Positions 25,155 through 39,824 of a stretch of DNA of 64,000 nt are shown one piece after another. The DNA is from Actinomycetota bacterium (GTDB taxonomy: Bacteria; Actinomycetota; UBA4738; CALAEC01): NCBI GenBank assembly GCA_050692915.1, contig JBOGVU010000004.1, positions 1,968 to 65,967 of the forward strand, in the 5' to 3' direction. The notes beneath the pieces are model-generated. The model saw only the letters and a program-made list of their open reading frames with translations. It had not been told where the DNA came from and did no database searches. Numbering within the stretch: position 1 is the first letter of the stretch; the number at the start of each line of letters is the position of its first letter. The position numbers and the translations under genes are program-made.

Positions 25155-26776
25155 GCGTCCGCCTGGCGCTGGCCGTGTTCCTGGTGGCGGGGTCGTGCAC
25201 GACGGAGACCGAGCCCCGGGCCGAACCCTCGCCGCCGACGACGCCGTCGCCGATCGCCCCGACCGCCGGCCCGCCCCCCGAGGTCCTGGCCTCCGGCCCC
25301 GTGGCTCGCCGGACGTGCCGCCTTCCCCATCGACACCTGCTCCGGATCTGGCGGGGCTACGACCCGGAGCGCAGCGGCGAGCTCCAGCTGGTCCCCGTCG
25401 AGCCGAACGTGATCGGTCCGGGGTTTCCGCACGCCGGCGTGGCCGATCATCTGCAGGACGTGCCGATGCTCGTGTACGGGCCGGGGCTGATCGAGCCAAG
25501 GCGGCGGGTCCTGCGTCCGGTCACGGTGGCCGACGTGGCCCCGACCATCGCCGGGCTGATCGACTTCGATCTCCCCGCCCCGGACGGCGTTCCCCTGCGC
25601 GAGGCCCCGGTTCGGGGGGCGGAGCCGGCCCGGCTGGTGGTCACGCTCGTGTGGGACGGCGGCGGCCGGGGGGTCCTCGACGAATGGCCCGATGCGTGGC
25701 CGAACCTCCGGCGGCTGATCGGGGAAGGGACGTGGTACGAGCGGGCCACCGTGGGCTCATCGCCCTCCACGAGCGCCCCGATCCACGCCACCATCGGGAC
25801 CGGCACGTTCCCCAAGCGGCACGGCCTGATCGGGAACGCCCTCCGGATCGACGGCCGCATCGGCGACCCGTGGGAGCAGGGGCCGGCCCATCTTCGCCAG
25901 CCCTCGGTGGGGGACCTGTACGACCTGTCGGAGGACAACGTCCCGCTGATCGGGCTGATCGGGAGCGCGCAGGTGCAGCTCGGGCTGCTCGGCCACGGCT
26001 CGATGTGGGGCGGGGGCGACCGCGACATCGCCGTGCTCAAGCGCCGCCGCGGGTACGAGAGCCCGGACGGGTTCTGGGGGGTCACATCGACGAGCAGGGT
26101 CGCTTTCTCCACGCCCGGGTACGTGAACGACCTGCCGTTCATCACCGAGTACCACCGGTACGCGGACCTCCTGGACGGCCGGGCCGACGGGGCGTGGCTC
26201 GGGGAGCCCATCGAGCTGCTCAGGAACGGCTTCGACACCCCCGCCCGGATCCCGTTCGAGACGCGGCTGGTGGAGGAGGTGGTCCGCCGGGAGGGATTCG
26301 GCCGGGACGACGTCCCCGACCTCCTCTATCTCAACTACAAGTTGATCGATTTCGTGGGCCACCGGTGGAGCCTCCACAGCCAGCAGATGCGGCACACCAT
26401 CCGGGAGCAGGACGCGGAGCTGCCCGAGCTGGTCGAGCTCCTCGACGACCGGGTGGGGAGAGGGCGGTGGGTCCTGATCCTCACGGCCGACCACGGCTCT
26501 CAGCCGGACCCGGTCGCCGAGGGCGGACGCCGGATCGACATCACGGGGATCGAGGCCCACATCCGGGCCCGGTTCGACGACGGGGACGACCGGCCCCTGG
26601 TCCAGCAGGTCCAGACGAGCCAGGTGTTCCTCGACACGCAGGAGCTGGCCCAGAACGGCCACACCCTGCAGGAGGTCTCGGCCAGCCTGCTGCGATCCGA
26701 GCCGGGCCTGGCGGCGGCGTTCCCCTCCGAGCTCCTTCCCCGGCTCCGGTGCCTTCCCGAGGCCCGGGACGGGTAA
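25127..26776 (+). CDS. secreted lipoprotein of the alkaline-phosphatase superfamily (type I phosphodiesterase / nucleotide pyrophosphatase-like)
   Basis: GTG start yields signal peptide MRELRAPALSVRLALAVFLVAGSC. TGTFPKRHG and LTADHG motifs. Overlaps the cupin gene's 3' end by 28 nt. Confidence 0.7.
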   Translation: MRELRAPALSVRLALAVFLVAGSCTTETEPRAEPSPPTTPSPIAPTAGPPPEVLASGPVARRTCRLPHRHLLRIWRGYDPERSGELQLVPVEPNVIGPGFPHAGVADHLQDVPMLVYGPGLIEPRRRVLRPVTVADVAPTIAGLIDFDLPAPDGVPLREAPVRGAEPARLVVTLVWDGGGRGVLDEWPDAWPNLRRLIGEGTWYERATVGSSPSTSAPIHATIGTGTFPKRHGLIGNALRIDGRIGDPWEQGPAHLRQPSVGDLYDLSEDNVPLIGLIGSAQVQLGLLGHGSMWGGGDRDIAVLKRRRGYESPDGFWGVTSTSRVAFSTPGYVNDLPFITEYHRYADLLDGRADGAWLGEPIELLRNGFDTPARIPFETRLVEEVVRREGFGRDDVPDLLYLNYKLIDFVGHRWSLHSQQMRHTIREQDAELPELVELLDDRVGRGRWVLILTADHGSQPDPVAEGGRRIDITGIEAHIRARFDDGDDRPLVQQVQTSQVFLDTQELAQNGHTLQEVSASLLRSEPGLAAAFPSELLPRLRCLPEARDG

Positions 26777-26785
26777 CCTCGGCCG

Positions 26786-27163
26786 ATGGCGGGCGAGCGG
26801 TTCTTCACCGTCGAGGAGGCGAACTCGGAGCTTCCGGCCCTCAGGGATCGCCTCACCCGGATCCGGGGGGCCAGGGCCACGGTCATCCGCTCGGCCGAGG
26901 TGGTCCGCCGGGCCTCCCCCTCGGACGGCGGCGGGCCGGAGGGCGCCGCCTACCTGGAGGCCGTGCGCGTGCTCCGCGAAGAGGTCGAGGCGCTGGCCGC
27001 GGCCGGCATCATCCTCCGTGACCCCGACAGCGGCCTGGTCGATTTCCCTGCCCGCCGGGAGGGCCGCACGGTCTACCTGTGCTGGCGGCTCGGGGAGGAG
27101 CGGGTGGAGCACTGGCACGACGCCAGCTCCGGGTTCTCCGGCCGTCGGCCTCTCAACAGCTGA
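26786..27163 (+). CDS. conserved hypothetical protein (DUF2203-like), the typical actinobacterial neighbour of uvrB
   Basis: [12 protein letters not shown]…GLVDFP…[10 protein letters not shown]…WH pattern. Occupies the position of the Rv1632c-type gene. Confidence 0.55.
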
Positions 27164-29199: not shown

Positions 29200-29477
29200 C
29201 CCTCTGACCGGGGATTCGGACACATCTGCCGGAGAGGGGTCCCTCCGCCGGAGGTCCGACTTGTTCACCCGACCGACAGCGGGTTAGGGTTCGTTTCCAT
29301 CCTCGAGCGCCCGCACCGGGAGGGAGCACGATCAGGATCGCTTGCCGTTCATGGCCCAACGCTTCCGCCGTTGTCCACGTGCGGTGCTTCCCTGAGTATC
29401 CGTCCCGGCCCAGGGATCCTCCGCCGCGAGCCCGAACAAGATTTCCGATGAACGTCGGTCGAACAAGGAGGAAGCGG

Positions 29478-31235
29478 ATGCACCGAAGGATGCGCACGAT
29501 CGTGCTCGTGGGCTCCATGGCCGGATTGCTCAGCTTGCCGTTGGCGGCGGCTGCGGAGCCCCCGCCGGAAGAGGTGAGCACGTTCGACTACACGCAGAAC
29601 ATGCACCCGATGGGTCATTCGGCCCGGATCCCCGTGGGCGGCAGGTTCAACTCGGACCTGGCCTTCTGGGGAAAGACCGCCTACCAGGGCACCTACGAGG
29701 GGTTCCGGATCATCGACATCACCGAGCGGGACAACCCGGTCGAGGTAAACAACTACGCGGAGTGCGCGCCCGGTTCGACGGCCGGGAACCAGGGCGACGT
29801 GATCATCTGGGATGACATCCTGGTCCGATCGTGGAATTCGAACACGGGGGCCGCCGGCAGCTCCTGTGACGGCGACTTCGTTCCGCCGGGGTTCGAGGGC
29901 CTGCACGTCTTCGAAGTCAGCGATCCATCCGATCCCGACCTGATCGCCTCGGTCGACCTCCCCCAGGGGTCGCACACCGCCACGGGCGTGCCGGACCTGG
30001 AGAACGACCGGCTGCTCGTCTACAACTCGGCCTCGAGCGGCGCGAATCCGGGGATCGACATCGTGGAGGTCCCCCTGGACGCGCCGGAGAACGCCGCGTT
30101 CCTCCGGTTCGAGCCGTCCGGCGATCCCACGATCGGCGGTGGGCTGCCGAACCTCGTGACGATCGATCCTCCGTCCTCGGCGGCGGGGGTCTACGGGGCG
30201 ACGGGGGCGGCTTTCGGGCCAGCGCCGACCTCCGGCGGCATCTCCGGCGACATCGAACTGGTCAACGACGGCGTCAGTACCCCGCCGGCCGGCACGCCCA
30301 CCGACGGATGCGAGCCGTTCACGCTGACGGCCGGGGCCATCGCGCTGATCGACCGGGGTACCTGCTCCTTCGTCCAGAAGGCGAGCAACGCGCAGGCGGC
30401 CGGGGCGTCGGCGGTCATCGTGGCCAACAACGTGCCCGGGGCCCCGATCACCATGGGGGGCTCCGACCCGACGATCACGATCCCATCGGTGATGGTGTCG
30501 CTGGACGACGGCAACACCATCAAGGCGGGCCTGCCGGCCCACGCCACCATCACCAGCCACCCGATGCCGCAGCGGTCCTGCCACGACACCGGGGTGATCC
30601 TGGGCGACGCCCTGAAGGCGGCCTGCGCCGGCGGGAACGGGCTCACCGTGTGGAGCATGGACCCCGCCGACGGCGGATCGCTGACCGACCCCCAGATCCT
30701 GTACTCCCGGGCGGTCGAAGGGGTGAGCATCGGGCACTCCGCGTCGTTCACCTGGGACGGAGAGACCGTGATCTTCGGGCACGAGCCCGGTGGTGGTGGT
30801 CAGGCGCAGTGCCAGGCGACGAGCCCTGAGGTCAACAAGACCATGTTCTTCTTCGATGCGGACACGGGAGACGAGGTCGGCCGCTGGGTGCTCCCACGGC
30901 CGCAGACGAACACGGAGAACTGCACGATCCACAACTACAACATCGTGCCCACCGCCAAGCGGGACGTGGTCGTCAGCGGCAACTACCAGTCGGGGATCAG
31001 CGTGGTCGACTTCTCCGACCCCGAGAACGCCGTGGAGGTGGCCTACGCCGACCCGGCCCCGCTCGTGCCCACGGCCACCGGTGGAGACTGGTCGTCGTAC
31101 TGGTACAACGGGATGATCTACGAGTCCGACATCACCAGGGGCTTCACCACCTGGCTGCTCAGCGACAAGGTGGTGGCCGGCGCCATGAAGCTCGGACACC
31201 TCAACCCGCAGACCCAGGAGTTCACCATCGGGTAG
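29478..31235 (+). CDS. secreted LVIVD-repeat beta-propeller protein with inserted PA (protease-associated) domain
   Basis: RBS AGGAGG precedes ATG 29478. Signal peptide. Repeated GFRIIDITERDNP / GISVVDFSDPENA blades. PA-like insert spans roughly 30090-30550. Tandem paralog of the next gene. Confidence 0.7.
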   Translation: MHRRMRTIVLVGSMAGLLSLPLAAAAEPPPEEVSTFDYTQNMHPMGHSARIPVGGRFNSDLAFWGKTAYQGTYEGFRIIDITERDNPVEVNNYAECAPGSTAGNQGDVIIWDDILVRSWNSNTGAAGSSCDGDFVPPGFEGLHVFEVSDPSDPDLIASVDLPQGSHTATGVPDLENDRLLVYNSASSGANPGIDIVEVPLDAPENAAFLRFEPSGDPTIGGGLPNLVTIDPPSSAAGVYGATGAAFGPAPTSGGISGDIELVNDGVSTPPAGTPTDGCEPFTLTAGAIALIDRGTCSFVQKASNAQAAGASAVIVANNVPGAPITMGGSDPTITIPSVMVSLDDGNTIKAGLPAHATITSHPMPQRSCHDTGVILGDALKAACAGGNGLTVWSMDPADGGSLTDPQILYSRAVEGVSIGHSASFTWDGETVIFGHEPGGGGQAQCQATSPEVNKTMFFFDADTGDEVGRWVLPRPQTNTENCTIHNYNIVPTAKRDVVVSGNYQSGISVVDFSDPENAVEVAYADPAPLVPTATGGDWSSYWYNGMIYESDITRGFTTWLLSDKVVAGAMKLGHLNPQTQEFTIG

Positions 31236-31268
31236 CGGGGACGGATCCCTCGTCTGTTTCGCCCGGTT

Positions 31269-31301
31269 GAGAGAGGGGCGGCCGTGAGGTCGCCCTCTCT
31301 C
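31269..31301 (+). terminator. GC hairpin after LVIVD paralog 1 (GAGAGAGGGGCG … CGCCCTCTCTC)
   Basis: Inverted repeat with one bulged G. No U-tract, which is common in high-GC genomes. Confidence 0.4.
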
Positions 31302-31460
31302 GCTCCCCGGCCCGGCCGGACCGTGAGGGGCGACCAGCCGGTTTGCGGGTTTCCTCCCCAACGGCTAGGGTCGAAGGGTCCCTGACCCCGCACGTGCTTT
31401 TGCCATGGGCGATTCCCGTGGGGCCACGCGCGGGCCAATAGGACGAGGAGGTGGGGACAC

Positions 31461-32864
31461 GTGAGAAGGAGAATCCGATGGTCCACGCTGGCCGTCTCCA
31501 TGACGGCCCTGGTGGCCGTGGGGGTGCCGGCGCAGGCCGACCATGCCACGCGGCCAAGCACCACGAACATCCATGCCCTGGGGCACAGCCCCCAGGAAGG
31601 GACGTTCAGCGTCCCCGATGGACAGCGGGTGATCAACTCCGACATCGCGTTCTGGGGAGACATCGCGTTCAACGGGAACTACAACGGGTTCCGGGTGATC
31701 GACATCTCCGCACCCGGGAACCCGAAGGAGATCTCCCACCCAGAGTGCAATGGTGACCAGGGCGACATCGTGGTCTGGGAGGACATCCTGGTCCGATCGT
31801 GGAACTCGCCGGCCCCGGCGGGACGGACCTGCGACGGTGAGCCGGTGCCGGTGGGCTTCGAGGGCGTGCACGTCTGGGACATCAGCGACCTCGACAACCC
31901 CACGCTGCTCACCGCGGTGGAGTTCAGCGCGGCGGGAGCGGCGCAGCGGGGCACCGCGGACGGCTGCGGCTCCCACACGGCGACGCTGGTCCCCGATCTC
32001 GAGAGCGATCGCCTGCTCGTCTACAGCAACAACTCGTCGGGTGCTGGTCGCCCAGTGTGCGACGCCATGGACATCATCGAGGTGCCCACGGACGATCCGT
32101 CCAGCGCCAGCCACATCGGCTACGTTCCGCTCACCGGCGGCTCGCTCGGCAGCAACAACGGCTGCCACGACGCCGGTGCGATCCTCGGAGACGTCAACAA
32201 GCTGGTGTGCGCCAGTGGCCACGCCGCGAACGTGTTCTCGATCGGCGCGCCCGGCGGTGGCACTCTCGAGAACCCACAGTTCCTCTACACGATCGAGGAA
32301 TCGGATGCGTTCGGGAACAAGGTCGGCATCGGGGGACGGTGGCACTCGGCCGGCTTCACCTGGGACGGGGAGGTCATCGTCCTGGGGTGGGAGCCTGGCG
32401 GTGGCGGCGCGGCAGAGTGCGAGGCCACGGACCCCGACATCAAGAAGAGCATGTTCTTCTACGACGCCGACACCGGGGCCAAGCTCGGCCAGTGGGTGCT
32501 CCCAAACCCGCAGGGGGCCGACGAGAACTGCACGATCCACGTCTACAACATCGTGCCCCTTCGGAGCGGCCGGTACGTCGCGGTGAGCGGGAACTACCAG
32601 GCCGGGACGTGGGCCACCGACTTCACCGACCCGGCCAACCCGGTCACGGTCGGCTGGTCCGACCCGCCCTCGCTCGGGCCCGGCCCCTTCTGCGGCGGGC
32701 AGTGCCAGATCGGCGGTGCGTGGTCGAGCTACTGGTACAACAACTTCATCTACGAGTCGGAGATCCAGGCCGGTCTGAACGTGTTCCGGCTGAGCGACTC
32801 CGCGACCGGCGGAGCGATCAAGCTGGATCACCTGAACCCGCAGACGCAGGAGTTCTCCCTGTAG
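31461..32864 (+). CDS. secreted LVIVD-repeat beta-propeller protein (paralog without PA insert)
   Basis: GTG start with upstream GAGGAGG. Colinear with paralog 1, including conserved Cys positions and the shared C-terminus LNPQTQEF. Confidence 0.7.
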   Translation: MRRRIRWSTLAVSMTALVAVGVPAQADHATRPSTTNIHALGHSPQEGTFSVPDGQRVINSDIAFWGDIAFNGNYNGFRVIDISAPGNPKEISHPECNGDQGDIVVWEDILVRSWNSPAPAGRTCDGEPVPVGFEGVHVWDISDLDNPTLLTAVEFSAAGAAQRGTADGCGSHTATLVPDLESDRLLVYSNNSSGAGRPVCDAMDIIEVPTDDPSSASHIGYVPLTGGSLGSNNGCHDAGAILGDVNKLVCASGHAANVFSIGAPGGGTLENPQFLYTIEESDAFGNKVGIGGRWHSAGFTWDGEVIVLGWEPGGGGAAECEATDPDIKKSMFFYDADTGAKLGQWVLPNPQGADENCTIHVYNIVPLRSGRYVAVSGNYQAGTWATDFTDPANPVTVGWSDPPSLGPGPFCGGQCQIGGAWSSYWYNNFIYESEIQAGLNVFRLSDSATGGAIKLDHLNPQTQEFSL

Positions 32865-32883
32865 CGTTCGCGGGCTGACGTTG

Positions 32884-32913
32884 GTGGGGGGTGGGCGCCG
32901 GCCCACCCCCCAC
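32884..32913 (+). terminator. perfect 13-bp GC hairpin (GTGGGGGGTGGGC-GCCG-GCCCACCCCCCAC)
   Basis: Perfect inverted repeat lying between the LVIVD paralog 2 stop and the amidohydrolase GTG at 32932. Confidence 0.5.
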
Positions 32914-33983: not shown

Positions 33984-35324
33984 ATGCCGCCGATGACCGA
34001 CATCCCCAAGCCCCGCGTCGGGGTGGTGCTCGCCGCCGGGCGGTCCGAGCGGCTCCGGGCCGTGACCGGGGGCGGCTCGAAGGCGCTGGTCCGGCTGGGG
34101 GGCCTGCGACTGGTTGAGCGCGCCATCCGCACCCTGCTGACGAACGAGGTTGAGTTCGTGGTCGTCGTGGTCGGCTATCACGCCGGCCCGGTGGCCGCCG
34201 TGGCCCAGCGCGCCGCGCCGGGGCGGGTCCAGGTGGTGGAGGCCTCCGATTGGGAGGAGGGCAACGGGGCTTCGCTGGCCGCAGCCGAGCCCGTCCTGGG
34301 CGCCGAGCCAGGCTTCCTGGCCGTCAGCGCCGACCACGTGTTCGCCGAGGATGCCCTGGGGGACCTGACGAGGGCCGGCGGGCCGGCCGTCCTCGTCGAC
34401 CCCTCGCCGGAGCCGGAGGTGTGGAAGGAGGCCACCAAGGTCCGTATGGGGGCGGACGGGCGGGTGCAGGAGCTGGGGAAAGACGTGGACTCGCCCACGG
34501 TGGACGCCGGCGCCTTCCTCTTACCCCGGGAGGTGTTCGACGCGATCCGGAGGAGCAGGGCGCGCGGCGACGGGTCCCTGGCGGTGGCGGTGACCGAGCT
34601 CGGGAGAACCGTGCCGGTGGCCGCCGTGGCCATCCGGGCCGAGGCGTGGTGGCAGGACGTGGACACGCCCGAAGATCTGGCTCTGGCCGCCCGCAGGCTC
34701 CGGGCCGGCCTGCCCCGGCCCGGTGACGGCCCGGTGGCCCGGCTCTTGAACAGGCGCCTGTCGGTGCCGGTGTCCTGGCTGCTGGTCCGGTTCGGCCCGA
34801 ACCCGGACCTGCTGTCGGCGGCGGCGTTCGTGGTGGGGCTGGTGGCCGCGGCCTTCCTGGCCGCGGGTCTCGGGGTGGCCGGCGGCCTCATGGCCCAGCT
34901 CTGCTCGGTCCTGGACGGGGTTGACGGCGAGGTGGCCCGGCTTCAGCTCCGGGCCGGGCCCCGGGGGACCCTGCTGGACGGGGTCCTCGACCGACTGGGC
35001 GACGCGGCCATCTGCGCCGCCCTGGGCGTCTGGGCGTCTTCCGCAGGGACGTCCCCGGCCGTGGTGGTGGTCCTGGTGGCCGCGGCCACCACCGGAGCCA
35101 TGCTGTCTATGGCCACGAAGGACCGGGTGGCGGCCCTCGGCCTGGAGCCCCCCTCCGAGCGGCGGATCGGCTGGCTCCTGGGGGGCCGGGACGGCCGCCT
35201 CCTACTGATCGGGGTCCTTTCCGTGCTGGGGATGCCCCAGGCGGCCCTGGCGGCCACGGCCGGCACCTCGCTGGTCTCCGCGGCCATCCGGGTGTCGTTC
35301 GCCCGGACCGTCCCACCGTCCTGA
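33984..35324 (+). CDS. bifunctional nucleotidyltransferase / CDP-alcohol phosphotransferase (IPCT–DIPPS-like)
   Basis: N-terminal [12 protein letters not shown] and EEGNGASL nucleotidyltransferase motifs. C-terminal membrane domain carries the D-G-x2-A-R-x8-G-x3-D-x3-D signature ([10 protein letters not shown]…[13 protein letters not shown]). Confidence 0.65.
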
Positions 35325-38223: not shown

Positions 38224-39824
38224 GCCGCCGGGTCTGTGATAGAACACGTCCCGCTGTGCTGAGTCGGCTCGTGCCCGTCCTGGGCATCATCGCGCTGGTG
38301 GCCACGGCCTGCGGTTCGCCCGACATCGTGGTCCGGTCCGGGGAGCCCGAGGGACCCTCGTGGTTCTCGCTGGTGGTGGACTCGACCGGCGATGCCGGGG
38401 CGGGGCTCTCGTTGGCCACGGACGCCGACGGCAACCCCCACCTGGCCTACGTGGCCCTGGAGGAGGAGGTCGAGGGGGAGGCGCCCGCGCCCGACCCGCT
38501 GGCTCCCACGCTCCCGGCGGTGATGCACGCCCACCTTGTGGGGGAAGCCTGGACCCGGGGACCGGTGGCCGAGGAGCAGGAGCTCGACGGGGCGTCGGAG
38601 ACGGCCATCGCCGTCGGCGCCGACGGGGTGCACCACGTGGCCTGGACCGCCGGCGGCCAGGTTCTCTACTCGTCGAACGCCGGCGGCGAGTTCGCCGAGG
38701 AGCGGGAGACGGTGGCCGACATCGGGGCCGTGGGCTTGTCGATCGCCGCCGACGGGGACGGGACGCCCCTGATCGCGTTCCAGACCGCCCTGGATGAGGC
38801 CGAGGGCCCAGCCTCGCTGATCAGGCTGGCCACGCCGGAAGGCGAGGGAGCCTGGACGCTGGAGACCGTGGCGGAGGCGTCCGCGCCGGAGGAGCCGGCC
38901 GGCACGGCGGTCGTCGTCACCCCCGACGGGCCGGTGGTGGCGTTCGGGTCCGACGGGGCCACGCTGGTGGGGGAGCGGCGGGGCACGCGGTGGTTCAGCG
39001 AGACCGTGGACGAGGACGGCGGCGTGGGGATGGCGGGTTCCCCCGACGCCGACGGGAACCCTCACCTGGCGTACCTGACGGGGACCGGCGACGTCAAGCA
39101 CGCCCACTCGATCGATGGCGGGCCGTGGGACGTCTCCGACGTCGGCTCGGGGGCCACCGGCTCCCCGGCCTCGATCGCCCTGGACGCCGAGGGAGTCCAC
39201 CAAATCGCCTGGCAGACCGCCGACGGACTGGCCTACGCCTCGAACGCCGGTGGAGACGAGTTCGCCGAGGAGGAGCTGCCCGCCTCCACGGCCGAGGGCG
39301 TCCGGCCCAGGGTGGGCGCCGGCGCCGACGGGACCGTGTACGTGGCCTTCCGGGACGAGAGCGACACCGAGGTCCAGATGGCCGTCCGCAGCGAGGACGC
39401 CCCCCTCCTGGCGGTGCCCGCCCCCGAGGAGGCTGCGGGCGGCGGGGGTGCCGGGCCGCCGACCGGCCCGCCCCCCTGTGAGCCGGAGGGGACCGAGCTG
39501 GCCATCACCGCCCCGCCCGGAGGGGCGGGAACCGGGTTCGACACGGATTGCTTGGCTGCTCCGGCCGGCGAGGCCTTCACGATCGAATTCGATAACCAGG
39601 ACGACGGAGCAGCCCCGCAGACCCACAACGTCGCCATCTACACAGAACAGCCTCCAGCGGGGCAACCTCTGTTCCAGGGAGAGATCTTCCCCGCACCGGC
39701 CGCAATGACCTATGAGGTCGACCCCATCGACGAGCCCGGCAACTACTTCTTCCAGTGTGACGTTCACCCGACCACCATGACCGGGACGTTCGTGGTAGCC
39801 GTCGCAGACGGCGAAGGCGGCTAG
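38220..39824 (+). CDS. lipoprotein: 7-bladed beta-propeller fused to C-terminal cupredoxin (type-1 Cu) domain
   Basis: Lipobox LVATAC. Seven ~45-aa repeats of the form xDxDGxPH(L/I)A(Y/W/F). C-terminal copper ligands His…Cys-x2-His-x3-Met ([10 protein letters not shown]). GTG 38220 overlaps the uvrA stop; alternative GTG at 38256. Confidence 0.65.

What the first reader, a model, noticed from the sequence alone, without database searches (positions are those of the whole stretch)
29478..32913. Tandem secreted LVIVD-repeat beta-propeller paralogs, one with a PA-domain insertion, wedged between uvrB and uvrA
The two adjacent genes are colinear, sharing conserved Cys positions, recurring G(F/L)R(I/V)IDI(T/S)xPxNP blades and an identical C-terminus LNPQTQEF. 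The first carries an extra ~150-aa module with PA-domain character (GCEPF…ALIDRGTCSFVQKA…AVIVANN). LVIVD propellers are poorly characterised surface proteins. A PA module inserted into one paralog suggests neofunctionalisation, for example ligand or protease-substrate presentation. Both sit with an amidohydrolase and an IPCT/DIPPS-like gene as a cassette splitting the otherwise conserved uvrB…uvrA neighbourhood.
Basis: partly seen in the sequence, partly recalled or inferred. Interest (0 to 1): 0.65.

Follow-up and report, generated by a model that had tools for sequence, protein, structure and literature searches.

The report
Secreted propeller enzymes, one PA-capped
Two neighbouring genes encode exported seven-bladed propeller proteins, one carrying an extra PA domain; they belong to a widespread, unstudied family that is distantly related to a known manganese-dependent phosphotriesterase and probably keeps its metal site, so they are more likely enzymes than adhesins.

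Summary
P1 (29478-31235, 585 aa) and P2 (31461-32864, 467 aa) are colinear paralogs, 44-53% identical. Both have Sec-type signal peptides. P1 carries a 154-aa PA domain (Pfam E=1.4e-20). They lie between uvrB and uvrA.

The interpretation needs revising:
- The pair is not a recent duplication. Both architectures are old, widespread subfamilies in Actinomycetota and Chloroflexota.
- The uvr placement is confined to this lineage (2 of 80 related loci).
- No gene partner is conserved. The amidohydrolase has no signal peptide, and the IPCT/DIPPS-like gene is absent from the one relative that keeps the amidohydrolase.

New results:
- AlphaFold models are seven-bladed propellers. Their best solved match, for both proteins, is the Sphingobium phosphotriesterase Sb-PTE (5HRM). 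Profile-profile comparison supports remote homology (94-98%).
- The most conserved residues family-wide are four His plus Asp/Glu at the inner-strand starts of blades 2-6. This is where Sb-PTE holds its binuclear Mn centre.
- The PA module sits in the loop directly before one of these His. In some relatives the same module sits one blade earlier.

Best reading (about 0.55): secreted binuclear metallohydrolases of unknown substrate, with PA acting as a lid. Moderately interesting; a new variant of a known kind.

The parts
29478..31235 (+). P1: exported seven-bladed propeller with inserted PA domain (585 aa)
   Evidence: The ORF and translation are, with a Shine-Dalgarno sequence upstream. It is identical to the NCBI protein P0121, 'PA domain-containing protein'. 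The AF2 model has pLDDT 85.6 and pTM 0.82 and shows 7 blades plus the PA domain.
29478..29555 (+). P1 predicted Sec signal peptide (aa 1-26, AAAA|E)
   Evidence: Read directly from the sequence. In the model it is a helix at residues 2-18 with low pLDDT. No signal-peptide predictor was available.
30117..30578 (+). PA module (P1 aa 214-367) in the loop between strand D of blade 3 and strand A of blade 4, ending one residue before Cys368-His369
   Evidence: This stretch is the gap in the P1/P2 BLASTP alignment. PF02225 matches at E=1.4e-20. It matches solved PA domains by sequence and by fold.
31461..32864 (+). P2: exported seven-bladed propeller without PA (467 aa)
   Evidence: The ORF is, with a Shine-Dalgarno sequence upstream. 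It is identical to the NCBI protein P0001, 'LVIVD repeat-containing protein'. The AF2 model has pLDDT 89.2 and pTM 0.89.
31461..31538 (+). P2 predicted Sec signal peptide (aa 1-26, PAQA|D)
   Evidence: Read directly from the sequence. In the model it is a helix at residues 2-20 with low pLDDT.
29796..30932 (+). Span holding the P1 predicted hub (metal-site) codons: D107 29796-98, H166 29973-75, H369 30582-84, H420 30735-37, E436 30783-85, H485 30930-32
   Evidence: These residues are 99-100% conserved in 121 relatives. They remain invariant or at least 90% conserved in a set that is 31-62% identical. Each His lies at the start of strand A of blades 3-6. Codon positions were checked.
31764..32540 (+). 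Span holding the P2 predicted hub codons: D102 31764-66, H172 31974-76, H236 32166-68, H295 32343-45, E311 32391-93, H360 32538-40
   Evidence: Conservation and topology are. H295 aligns to Sb-PTE His-389 by hhalign. H172 aligns to His-258 in the blade-restricted alignment.
31271..31301 (+). G+C-rich inverted repeat after the P1 stop (possible terminator without a T-tract); P1 and P2 probably have separate transcripts
   Evidence: Read from the sequence. The consensus scan found only a weaker site at 31237-31250. Function was not tested.

Best explanation
P1 and P2 are Sec-exported, disulfide-stabilised, seven-bladed beta-propeller proteins. Their family is found mainly in Actinomycetota and Chloroflexota and is a remote homologue of Sb-PTE, the Sphingobium sp. 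TCM1 phosphotriesterase (PDB 5HRM).

At the top-face mouth of the central channel the family keeps a ring of four His and several carboxylates:
- P1: D107, H166, H369/D370, H420, E436, H485.
- P2: D102, H172, H236/D237, H295, E311, H360.

These occupy the blade positions where Sb-PTE binds its two Mn2+ ions: E201 bridging; H258 and H317 on one ion; H389, E407 and H475 on the other. The most likely function is therefore an extracellular binuclear-metal hydrolase acting on an unknown ester, phosphoester or amide substrate.

In P1 the PA domain is spliced into the top-face loop that ends directly at Cys368-His369, so it sits over the active-site mouth. There it would act as a lid or substrate-recruiting module, as PA domains do in subtilases and M28 aminopeptidases. 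This would give P1 a different substrate range from P2.

Shown: the genes, the paralogy, the PA domain, the fold, the best structural and profile match, and the conservation pattern.

Inferred: export, metal binding, catalysis, the role of PA, and the one-to-one ligand mapping.
For: **Fold**
- Both AF2 models are confident seven-bladed propellers.

**Closest solved structure**
- Foldseek against the PDB ranks 5HRM first for both models. P1 gives E=3.9e-11. P2 gives E=1.7e-10 with TMq 0.58. The next hits are about 100-fold worse.
- A family profile searched against all PDB sequences finds only 5hrm/5ioj, at a non-significant E=0.15.

**Homology**
- hhalign of family profiles against two Sb-PTE-type sequences gives probability 80.7% (E 1.3e-5), 93.8% (E 1.7e-7, local), 97.7% (E 1.2e-11, global) and 95.5% (E 1.4e-8).

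**Sb-PTE ligands**
- The ligand and disulfide residue numbers were recalled from the abstract of Mabanglo et al. 2016. The title appears in the reference list read.
- All 12 numbers hit the expected E, H or C in the orthologue recovered from plasmid NZ_CP022749.

**Direct alignments**
- P2 H295-S aligns to His389-Ser, C320 to C411, and ENC357 to ENC443. E311 falls within a few residues of E407.
- H172 aligns to H258 (HTATLVPD / HMVTISPN) in blade-restricted alignments.
- The in-register blade pairing has the highest summed score: 125.6 against 101-112 for the six other cyclic offsets.

**Conservation**
- The hub residues are 99-100% conserved in 121 family ORFs.
- They are among the few invariant or at least 90% conserved positions in a set only 31-62% identical.

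**Topology**
- Each His lies at the start of the innermost strand of blades 3-6. E436 lies at the top end of strand B of blade 5.

**PA position**
- Both known insertion sites are D-to-A loops on the same face. Each ends immediately before a hub His.
- PA domains inserted in catalytic domains are implicated in substrate binding (PMC5177683 abstract). The VSR PA domain binds peptide C-termini (PMC12796998 abstract).
Against: - hhalign by itself aligns only one of the six ligand pairs exactly. In its N-terminal half it slips by one blade, which is a repeat ambiguity. The other correspondences rest on blade register.
- I had no model coordinates, so I could not measure whether the hub side chains converge.
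- The bridging Glu of Sb-PTE would be an Asp here.
- Conserved His at strand-A starts can be purely structural, as in the WD40 His-Ser-Asp-Trp tetrads.
- No conserved enzymatic partner or regulator hints at a substrate.
- P2 has Asn349 and Val361 where at least 98% of relatives have Arg and Asn, so P2 itself may be atypical.
Confidence: 0.55

Rival explanations
1. The proteins are non-catalytic surface or extracellular binding proteins, which is the customary reading of LVIVD repeats. The propeller top face would bind a ligand, cell-wall component or partner protein. The PA domain would add a second binding surface for peptide tails. The conserved His/Asp ring would be structural, or would bind a structural ion.
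For: - Marginal Pfam LVIVD hits.
- The literature treats LVIVD proteins as surface or attachment proteins.
- Copy number varies from 1 to 9 in tandem arrays, as is typical of environment-facing binding proteins.
- The VSR PA domain is a pure peptide-binding module.
Against: - About a dozen polar residues clustered at one face are almost invariant across proteins only 31-62% identical. This pattern is more typical of a catalytic or metal site than of a variable binding surface.
- The best solved match and the only profile-level homologue is an enzyme that uses equivalent positions for metals.
- Neither P1 nor P2 has a wall or membrane anchor.
Confidence: 0.25
2. The proteins are secreted metalloenzymes with non-hydrolytic chemistry. 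The His-rich hub would hold copper or iron, as in other propeller metalloenzymes such as the nitrous-oxide reductase CuZ site, thiocyanate dehydrogenase, or SBP56/methanethiol oxidase. The proteins would then oxidise a small extracellular substrate.
For: - The four invariant His at the propeller hub resemble the His-rich hubs of copper propellers (own knowledge).
- An Sb-PTE-like relative gives a weak SBP56 hit, E=0.004 and below the cut-off.
- A cupredoxin-like lipoprotein gene lies 5 kb downstream, at 38271-39824.
Against: - P1 and P2 have no Pfam or NCBIfam hit to any of those families.
- Those structures do not outrank Sb-PTE in either fold search.
- The invariant carboxylates (D107, D370, E436) fit a hard-metal binuclear hydrolase site better.
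- The cupredoxin-like gene is separated by uvrA and is not linked to the family elsewhere.
Confidence: 0.1
3. A local tandem duplication was followed by insertion of a PA module into one copy (neofunctionalisation). The pair, the amidohydrolase and the IPCT/DIPPS-like gene would form one functional cassette inserted between uvrB and uvrA.
For: - The genes are adjacent, on the same strand, colinear and homologous.
- Spacers from P2 through the amidohydrolase and the IPCT/DIPPS-like gene to uvrA are short, 11-22 nt.
- L032 also has a PA-bearing plus a PA-less pair after uvrB. L046 has a family member plus the amidohydrolase.
Against: - P1 and P2 are only 44-53% identical and sit on distant branches.
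- The PA-bearing architecture is old and widespread.
- Each gene has its own ribosome-binding site, and 225-279 nt spacers with hairpins precede both.
- The amidohydrolase lacks a signal peptide.
- The IPCT/DIPPS-like gene is missing in L046.
- 78 of 80 related loci are not near uvr genes, and none of them carries these neighbours.
Confidence: 0.07

Closest known systems
Sb-PTE / haloalkylphosphorus hydrolase of Sphingobium sp. TCM1 (PDB 5HRM, 5IOJ)
   Same: - Exported seven-bladed propeller with degenerate LVIVD-like strand C-D motifs. Its Pfam LVIVD score is also sub-threshold, at 16-19 bits.
- Best Foldseek hit for both models.
- Profile-profile homology at 94-98% probability.
- Four His plus carboxylates at the strand-A starts of consecutive blades.
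- A shared local signature in blade 5: H-S ... E ... C ... E-N-C.
- Three disulfides in each. The C411-C443 pair aligns with the family's C445-C482 (P1 numbering).
   Different: - Identity is only 12-13%.
- Sb-PTE has no PA domain.
- Its bridging ligand is Glu, where this family has Asp.
- It has a loop about 29 residues longer before the blade-6 His.
- Two of the three disulfides lie elsewhere.
- It is proteobacterial and plasmid-borne next to IS6100, and was recruited recently for man-made flame retardants.
- The substrate of the family studied here is unknown.
Pfam LVIVD repeat (PF08309) / NCBIfam choice-of-anchor B (TIGR04312)
   Same: - The repeated G-x-x-[IV]-[IV]-D-[IV]-S-x-P-x-x-P strand motif.
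- Extracytoplasmic proteins.
- NCBI and JGI already name these proteins 'LVIVD repeat-containing' and 'PA domain/LVIVD repeat'.
   Different: - Scores sit at or below the cut-offs: 19.9 and 21.4 against 20.2 for LVIVD, and 30.9 and 18.5 against 100 for choice-of-anchor B.
- There is no C-terminal sorting signal.
- These models carry no functional information.
[quoted passage not shown]
   Same: - The PA domain is homologous. Matches include the NCBIfam M36 PA regions at 93-109 bits, solved M28 and S8 enzymes at E 1e-8 to 1e-3, and Foldseek hits at 23-27% identity.
- The PA domain is looped out of the host domain next to the active-site entrance.
   Different: The host here is a beta-propeller rather than a subtilisin, M28 or M36 fold. 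No paper in the searched library describes a PA domain inside a propeller.
Integrin alpha subunits with an inserted alpha-I domain (an analogy, not homology)
   Different: The inserted domain is unrelated (vWA), the proteins are eukaryotic, and integrins are non-catalytic.

Membership tests
PA domain (Pfam PF02225) | Profile score above the curated gathering cut-off | tested here: met
   P1 scores 73.6 bits against 23.9, E=1.4e-20, over aa 271-348. The L032 site-B protein scores 62.3 bits. P2 has no hit.
PA domain (Pfam PF02225) | PA fold and hallmark D-R-G-x-C-x-F motif with a conserved Cys pair | tested here: met
   Foldseek matches the VSR1 PA domain at TMt 0.64-0.71 and also hits BSAP and PaAP. 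IDRGTCSF is present, and C278, D292, R293, G294 and C296 are invariant in 42 PA-bearing relatives.
LVIVD repeat (Pfam PF08309) | Profile score above the gathering cut-off (20.2 bits) | tested here: inconclusive
   P1 scores 19.9 bits, just below the cut-off. P2 scores 21.4 bits, just above it. About half of the relatives carry a precomputed PF08309 hit.
Choice-of-anchor B (NCBIfam TIGR04312) | Score above the cut-off (100 bits) over the whole domain | tested here: not met
   Scores are 30.9 and 18.5 bits, and only the last 65-70 model positions match.
Sb-PTE-type propeller binuclear metallohydrolase | Seven-bladed propeller fold closest to 5HRM | tested here: met
   Seven blades are seen in both models. 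5HRM is the top Foldseek hit for both, at E 4e-11 and 2e-10. TM is only 0.55-0.58.
Sb-PTE-type propeller binuclear metallohydrolase | Detectable sequence homology | tested here: met
   hhalign probability is 80.7-97.7%, with E from 1.3e-5 to 1.2e-11. A plain hmmsearch is not significant, at E=0.15.
Sb-PTE-type propeller binuclear metallohydrolase | The six metal ligands (E201, H258, H317, H389, E407, H475) conserved at equivalent positions | tested here: inconclusive
   Candidates exist for all six and are 99-100% conserved: D107, H166, H369, H420, E436 and H485. Only H420/H295 to H389 is aligned directly. H166/H172 to H258 is aligned when the comparison is restricted to one blade. The rest follow from blade register. 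The bridging residue is Asp rather than Glu. No coordinates were available to check the geometry.
Sb-PTE-type propeller binuclear metallohydrolase | Bound binuclear Mn2+ (or other divalent metal) and phosphotriesterase or other hydrolase activity | not testable with these tools
   This needs protein expression, metal analysis and activity assays.
WD40 repeat proteins | WD40 profile match / GH-WD repeat signature | tested here: not met

The most novel reading that the evidence does not exclude
This family would be the natural, widespread reservoir of extracellular binuclear-metal propeller hydrolases from which the flame-retardant-degrading Sb-PTE was recruited. The family has about 230 clusters at 50% identity at E<=1e-30 and about 2000 at E<=1e-3.

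Within it, a PA 'lid' behaves as a movable cassette. The same homologous module is found spliced in front of the blade-4 His ligand (P1), in front of the blade-3 His ligand (L032 and five others), or absent (L046), all at the same chromosomal position downstream of uvrB.

Gaiellaceae keep arrays of 5-9 paralogs with exactly one PA-capped copy. This suggests that the capped and uncapped enzymes work as a set.
Probability: 0.35. Interest if true: 0.6.

Novelty: new variant of a known kind. Interest (0 to 1): 0.45.

Why it matters
- **Function of an unstudied family.** If the metal-site reading holds, a family currently labelled 'LVIVD repeat' or 'hypothetical', and assumed to be adhesive, would be a family of secreted metalloenzymes of soil and sediment Actinomycetota and Chloroflexota.
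- **Origin of Sb-PTE.** It would also give Sb-PTE natural relatives with a conserved metal site. Sb-PTE is otherwise an evolutionary orphan that hydrolyses man-made organophosphate flame retardants. The question of what activity Sb-PTE evolved from would then become experimentally approachable.
- **Domain evolution.** The PA module appears at two adjacent loops, or is absent, within one gene lineage. This is a clean natural example of domain relocation inside a repeat fold. It is also a handle for testing what PA domains do to substrate access.
- **What it does not mean.** The link to nucleotide excision repair is positional only.

Tried and rejected
- **Foldseek against afdb50.** The library was unavailable.
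- **phmmer of P2 against PDB sequences.** No hit.
- **Family profile against the PDB.** Only a non-significant hit, which was nevertheless the lead to Sb-PTE.
- **Recovering Sb-PTE with a 42-aa fragment through the search for homologous proteins.** It found nothing and used the last search. tblastn on plasmids worked instead.
- **Reading the primary Sb-PTE papers.** Mabanglo et al. 2016 and Bigley et al. 2019 are not held. Two later papers that cite Sb-PTE and a review of organophosphate-ester degradation gave no ligand details. The ligand numbers therefore come from my recollection of the abstract, checked against the sequence.
- **Search for conserved gene neighbours across 80 loci.** The only recurrent neighbours are hydantoinase A/B, a CGNR regulator, a response regulator and an ABC1 kinase. 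All are confined to one Gaiellaceae-type synteny block, so I rejected them as functional partners.
- **Rfam scan of 28.8-35.6 kb and promoter/terminator scan.** Nothing informative.
- **Horizontal transfer of the pair.** I considered this from composition. G+C is 0.67-0.69 against 0.70-0.73 nearby, and GC3 is 0.88-0.90. This is too weak to claim.
- **Tat export for P2 (RRRIRW).** I considered it but did not adopt it, because the motif is not a good S/T-R-R-x-F-L-K match.
- **NJ trees.** They have no support values. I use them only to say that P1 and P2 are not sister sequences and that PA modules from the two sites intermingle.

Full report
**What is there**

The window is about 70% G+C. By exact protein identity it matches an NCBI metagenome-assembled Actinomycetota genome.

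Two + strand genes occupy the flagged stretch:
- P1 runs 29478-31235 and encodes 585 aa. It starts at ATG behind AAGGAGGAA.
- P2 runs 31461-32864 and encodes 467 aa. It starts at GTG behind GAGGAGGTG.

P1 and P2 are colinear. Identity is 44% over the N-terminal 213-223 residues and 53% over the C-terminal 217-233 residues. P1 residues 214-367 have no counterpart in P2.

That insert is a bona fide PA domain:
- PF02225 scores 73.6 bits against a cut-off of 23.9.
- It matches the PA regions of solved peptidases and VSR1 by sequence.
- It matches them by fold as well.

Pfam LVIVD is only marginal, at 19.9 and 21.4 bits against 20.2. NCBIfam choice-of-anchor B is far below its cut-off.

Both N-termini read as Sec signal peptides with A-x-A sites. 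There is no lipobox, LPXTG motif or C-terminal membrane segment. This is read from the sequence, because no predictor was available.

- uvrB lies upstream.
- Downstream come an amidohydrolase, a fused nucleotidyltransferase/CDP-alcohol phosphatidyltransferase (IPCT/DIPPS-like, 191.7 bits against an equivalog cut-off of 580) and uvrA.
- A putative lipoprotein and uvrC follow.

**How common, and is the pair a local event?**

P2-type proteins have thousands of relatives at 90% clustering. Carriers include cultured Amycolatopsis, Haloactinopolyspora, Jiangella and Phytoactinopolyspora.

P1-type proteins with PA form their own large subfamily. All 120 listed representatives are 552-639 aa long and carry PF02225. 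They come from Acidimicrobiia, Gaiellaceae, Thermoleophilia and Jiangellaceae, and JGI already labels some 'PA domain/LVIVD repeat'.

An exhaustive HMMER scan of 1.84 billion cluster representatives at 50% identity gives 231 hits at E<=1e-30, 853 at E<=1e-10 and 2051 at E<=1e-3.

In a core-only NJ tree of 121 full-length family ORFs, P1 and P2 sit on distant branches. PA-less proteins are nearer to P1 than P2 is (no support values). So the pair is not a recent duplication with a fresh insertion.

**Genomic context**

Only two of 80 related loci from GTDB species representatives lie next to uvrB:
- L032 has a uvrB that is 91% identical. It reads Phosphodiest-DUF2203-uvrB, then a PA-bearing copy, then a PA-less copy.
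- L046 has a uvrB that is 71-77% identical. It has a single PA-less copy whose core is closer to P1 (63-73%) than to P2 (48%). The amidohydrolase follows, then an unrelated minus-strand gene where the window has the IPCT/DIPPS-like gene.

Elsewhere the family sits in unrelated contexts. The only recurrent neighbours are hydantoinase A/B, a CGNR regulator, a response regulator and an ABC1 kinase, and they belong to one Gaiellaceae-type synteny block.

The amidohydrolase has no signal peptide. No Rfam element lies in the region. The 'cassette' is therefore positional and lineage-specific, not a functional unit.

**Structure**

AF2 models are confident: P1 has pLDDT 85.6 and pTM 0.82, and P2 has pLDDT 89.2 and pTM 0.89.

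Both show seven four-stranded blades. An N-terminal strand completes blade 7. In P1 the PA domain is looped out between strand D of blade 3 and strand A of blade 4.

The same enzyme is the only PDB sequence touched by a family profile, at a non-significant E=0.15.

**Testing the Sb-PTE link**

I recovered a full-length Sb-PTE orthologue (583 aa) and a 48%-identical relative from sphingomonad plasmids.

Sb-PTE is described as a binuclear metal centre in a seven-bladed propeller. That is stated in the title of Mabanglo et al. 2016, seen in the reference list of PMC11656708.

From my memory of that abstract:
- The ligands are E201 (bridging), H258 and H317 on one metal, and H389, E407 and H475 on the other.
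- The disulfides are C146-C242, C411-C443 and C542-C559.

All twelve numbers land on the expected residue type in the recovered sequence. All six ligands are invariant in the 48%-identical relative.

Profile-profile comparison of the family with these two sequences gives:
- probability 80.7%;
- 93.8% local and 97.7% global with a broader profile;
- 95.5% with a 31-62%-identity profile.

The confidently aligned core pairs P2 W-H295-S with F-H389-S, C320 with C411, and E-N-C357 with E-N-C443. It places E311 within a few residues of E407.

In the N-terminal half hhalign slips by one blade, which is the usual ambiguity of repeats. A blade-by-blade score matrix favours the in-register pairing: 125.6 against 101-112 for the other six cyclic offsets. 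In register, H172 aligns with H258 (HTATLVPD / HMVTISPN).

**Conservation**

Across 121 family ORFs the following P1 positions are 98-100% conserved:
- polar residues D60, Q105, D107, R117, E140, H166, H369, D370, H420, E436, H485 and Y503, plus W538;
- three Cys pairs;
- the C-terminal N-P-Q-T.

In a set only 31-62% identical to P2, these hub residues are among the 18 invariant and 30 near-invariant columns.

By the DSSP strings of the models, D60, D107, H166, H369, H420 and H485 lie at the start of the innermost strand of blades 1-6. E436 lies at the top end of strand B of blade 5. This places them around the top-face mouth of the central channel, which is where Sb-PTE holds its metals.

I infer the following mapping from Sb-PTE to P1:

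| Sb-PTE | P1 |
|---|---|
| E201 | D107 |
| H258 | H166 |
| H317 (followed by E318) | H369 (followed by D370) |
| H389 (followed by S390) | H420 (followed by S421) |
| E407 | E436 |
| H475 | H485 |

This is an inference. Only two pairs are aligned directly, and I could not inspect coordinates.

**The PA module**

Among 38 PA-bearing ORFs in the loci, 32 have PA where P1 has it. This is site A, in the D3-to-A4 loop, ending just before C-H369-D.

Six have it one blade earlier (L023, L030, L032, L036, L041, L068). This is site B, in the D2-to-A3 loop, ending just before C-G-S-H, the blade-3 His.

The modules at the two sites are as similar to each other (mean 55%) as site-A modules are among themselves (60%). 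They share the same leader, LPxxVTIxxxxxAAGxYxATGAAFGxxPT. By contrast they are only 23-27% identical to solved PA domains. So one homologous module has been relocated rather than acquired twice.

Both sites are D-to-A loops on the same face, and each abuts a putative ligand His.

Downstream of uvrB, three related genomes show three states:
- PA at site A (window);
- PA at site B (L032);
- no PA (L046).

Gaiellaceae-type loci carry tandem arrays of 5-9 paralogs with exactly one PA-bearing member (L019, L020, L021, L025, L034, L038, L069).

**Mechanism proposed**

The proteins would be exported, disulfide-stabilised propeller hydrolases with a binuclear divalent-metal site at the hub, acting on an unknown substrate.

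In P1 the PA domain is tethered at the mouth of the site. It would act as a lid or substrate-recruiting element, by analogy with PA domains inserted in subtilases and M28 aminopeptidases.

My confidence is about 0.55. The rivals are:
- non-catalytic binding proteins (0.25);
- a metal site with redox chemistry (0.10);

**Novelty**

The genes themselves are ordinary members of an already annotated but unstudied family. What is not in the literature I could search:
- the link of this family to Sb-PTE, with a conserved putative metal site;
- a PA domain inserted in a propeller;
- its occurrence at two alternative loops.

I rate this as a new variant of a known kind, of moderate interest.

Noticed in passing
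L032:10010-11806 (also L023, L030, L036, L041, L068): In six relatives the same PA module is inserted one blade earlier than in P1, between blades 2 and 3, directly before the C-G-S-H motif. L032 is the closest syntenic relative (uvrB 91% identical), yet it has this alternative architecture.
   Followed up: partly
L019, L020, L021, L025, L034, L038, L069 (e.g. L069:5231-18439): Gaiellaceae and 'uncultured Actinomycetes' MAGs carry head-to-tail arrays of 5-9 family paralogs with exactly one PA-bearing copy. The arrays are flanked by hydantoinase A/B and a CGNR zinc-finger regulator.
   Followed up: partly
L046:2634-3944: At the same position downstream of uvrB, this relative has a single P1-like copy (core 63-73% identical to P1, 48% to P2) with no PA domain. 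The amidohydrolase follows it, but there is no IPCT/DIPPS-like gene.
   Followed up: yes
window 32505-32507 (P2 Asn349) and 32541-32543 (P2 Val361): P2 has Asn and Val where 98% of 121 relatives, including most of its own orthologues, have Arg and Asn. The second position is the residue right after the blade-6 hub His. P2 may therefore have altered or reduced activity.
   Followed up: no
window 25175-26776 and 26786-27163: A nucleotide pyrophosphatase/phosphodiesterase-family protein lies just upstream of uvrB. It hits Pfam Phosphodiest and weakly resembles the PafA-like alkaline phosphatase (92 bits against a cut-off of 650). A DUF2203 gene lies beside it. Both are conserved in L032 (77% and 83%). 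In sphingomonads the Sb-PTE pathway ends with an NPP-family phosphatase, so the proximity may be worth a look, but it could be coincidence.
   Followed up: no
window 33984-35324: This gene fuses a nucleotidyltransferase with a CDP-alcohol phosphatidyltransferase. It aligns end to end with the archaeal bifunctional IPCT/DIPPS model, but at 191.7 bits against a cut-off of 580. It may make di-myo-inositol phosphate or a related inositol-phosphate compound.
   Followed up: partly
window 38271-39824: A 517-aa putative lipoprotein lies between uvrA and uvrC. It has an N-terminal ...LVATAC motif, a weak cupredoxin-like C-terminus (23.9 bits against 27) and a weak 'PDIAV motif lipoprotein' hit. It is conserved at 38% in L046.
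   Followed up: no
P0241 (849 aa), P0250, P0266, P0268 (817-870 aa): Some family representatives are much longer. One has two matched stretches, so it is probably two propellers fused. Others carry 300-400 extra C-terminal residues of unknown nature.
   Followed up: no
L082:1215-2966 (NZ_CP022749.1) and hits H2-H5: Near-identical Sb-PTE orthologues (93-98% over the probe) sit on plasmids of several Sphingobium and Sphingopyxis strains (three of the six hit plasmids are typed conjugative). On the one plasmid examined (NZ_CP022749.1, typed conjugative) the gene lies next to IS6100. All are annotated only as 'hypothetical protein'.
   Followed up: no
window 31271-31301 and 29229-29252: G+C-rich inverted repeats without T-tracts follow the P1 stop and the uvrB stop. 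They may be actinobacterial-type terminators, which would imply that P1 is transcribed on its own.
   Followed up: no
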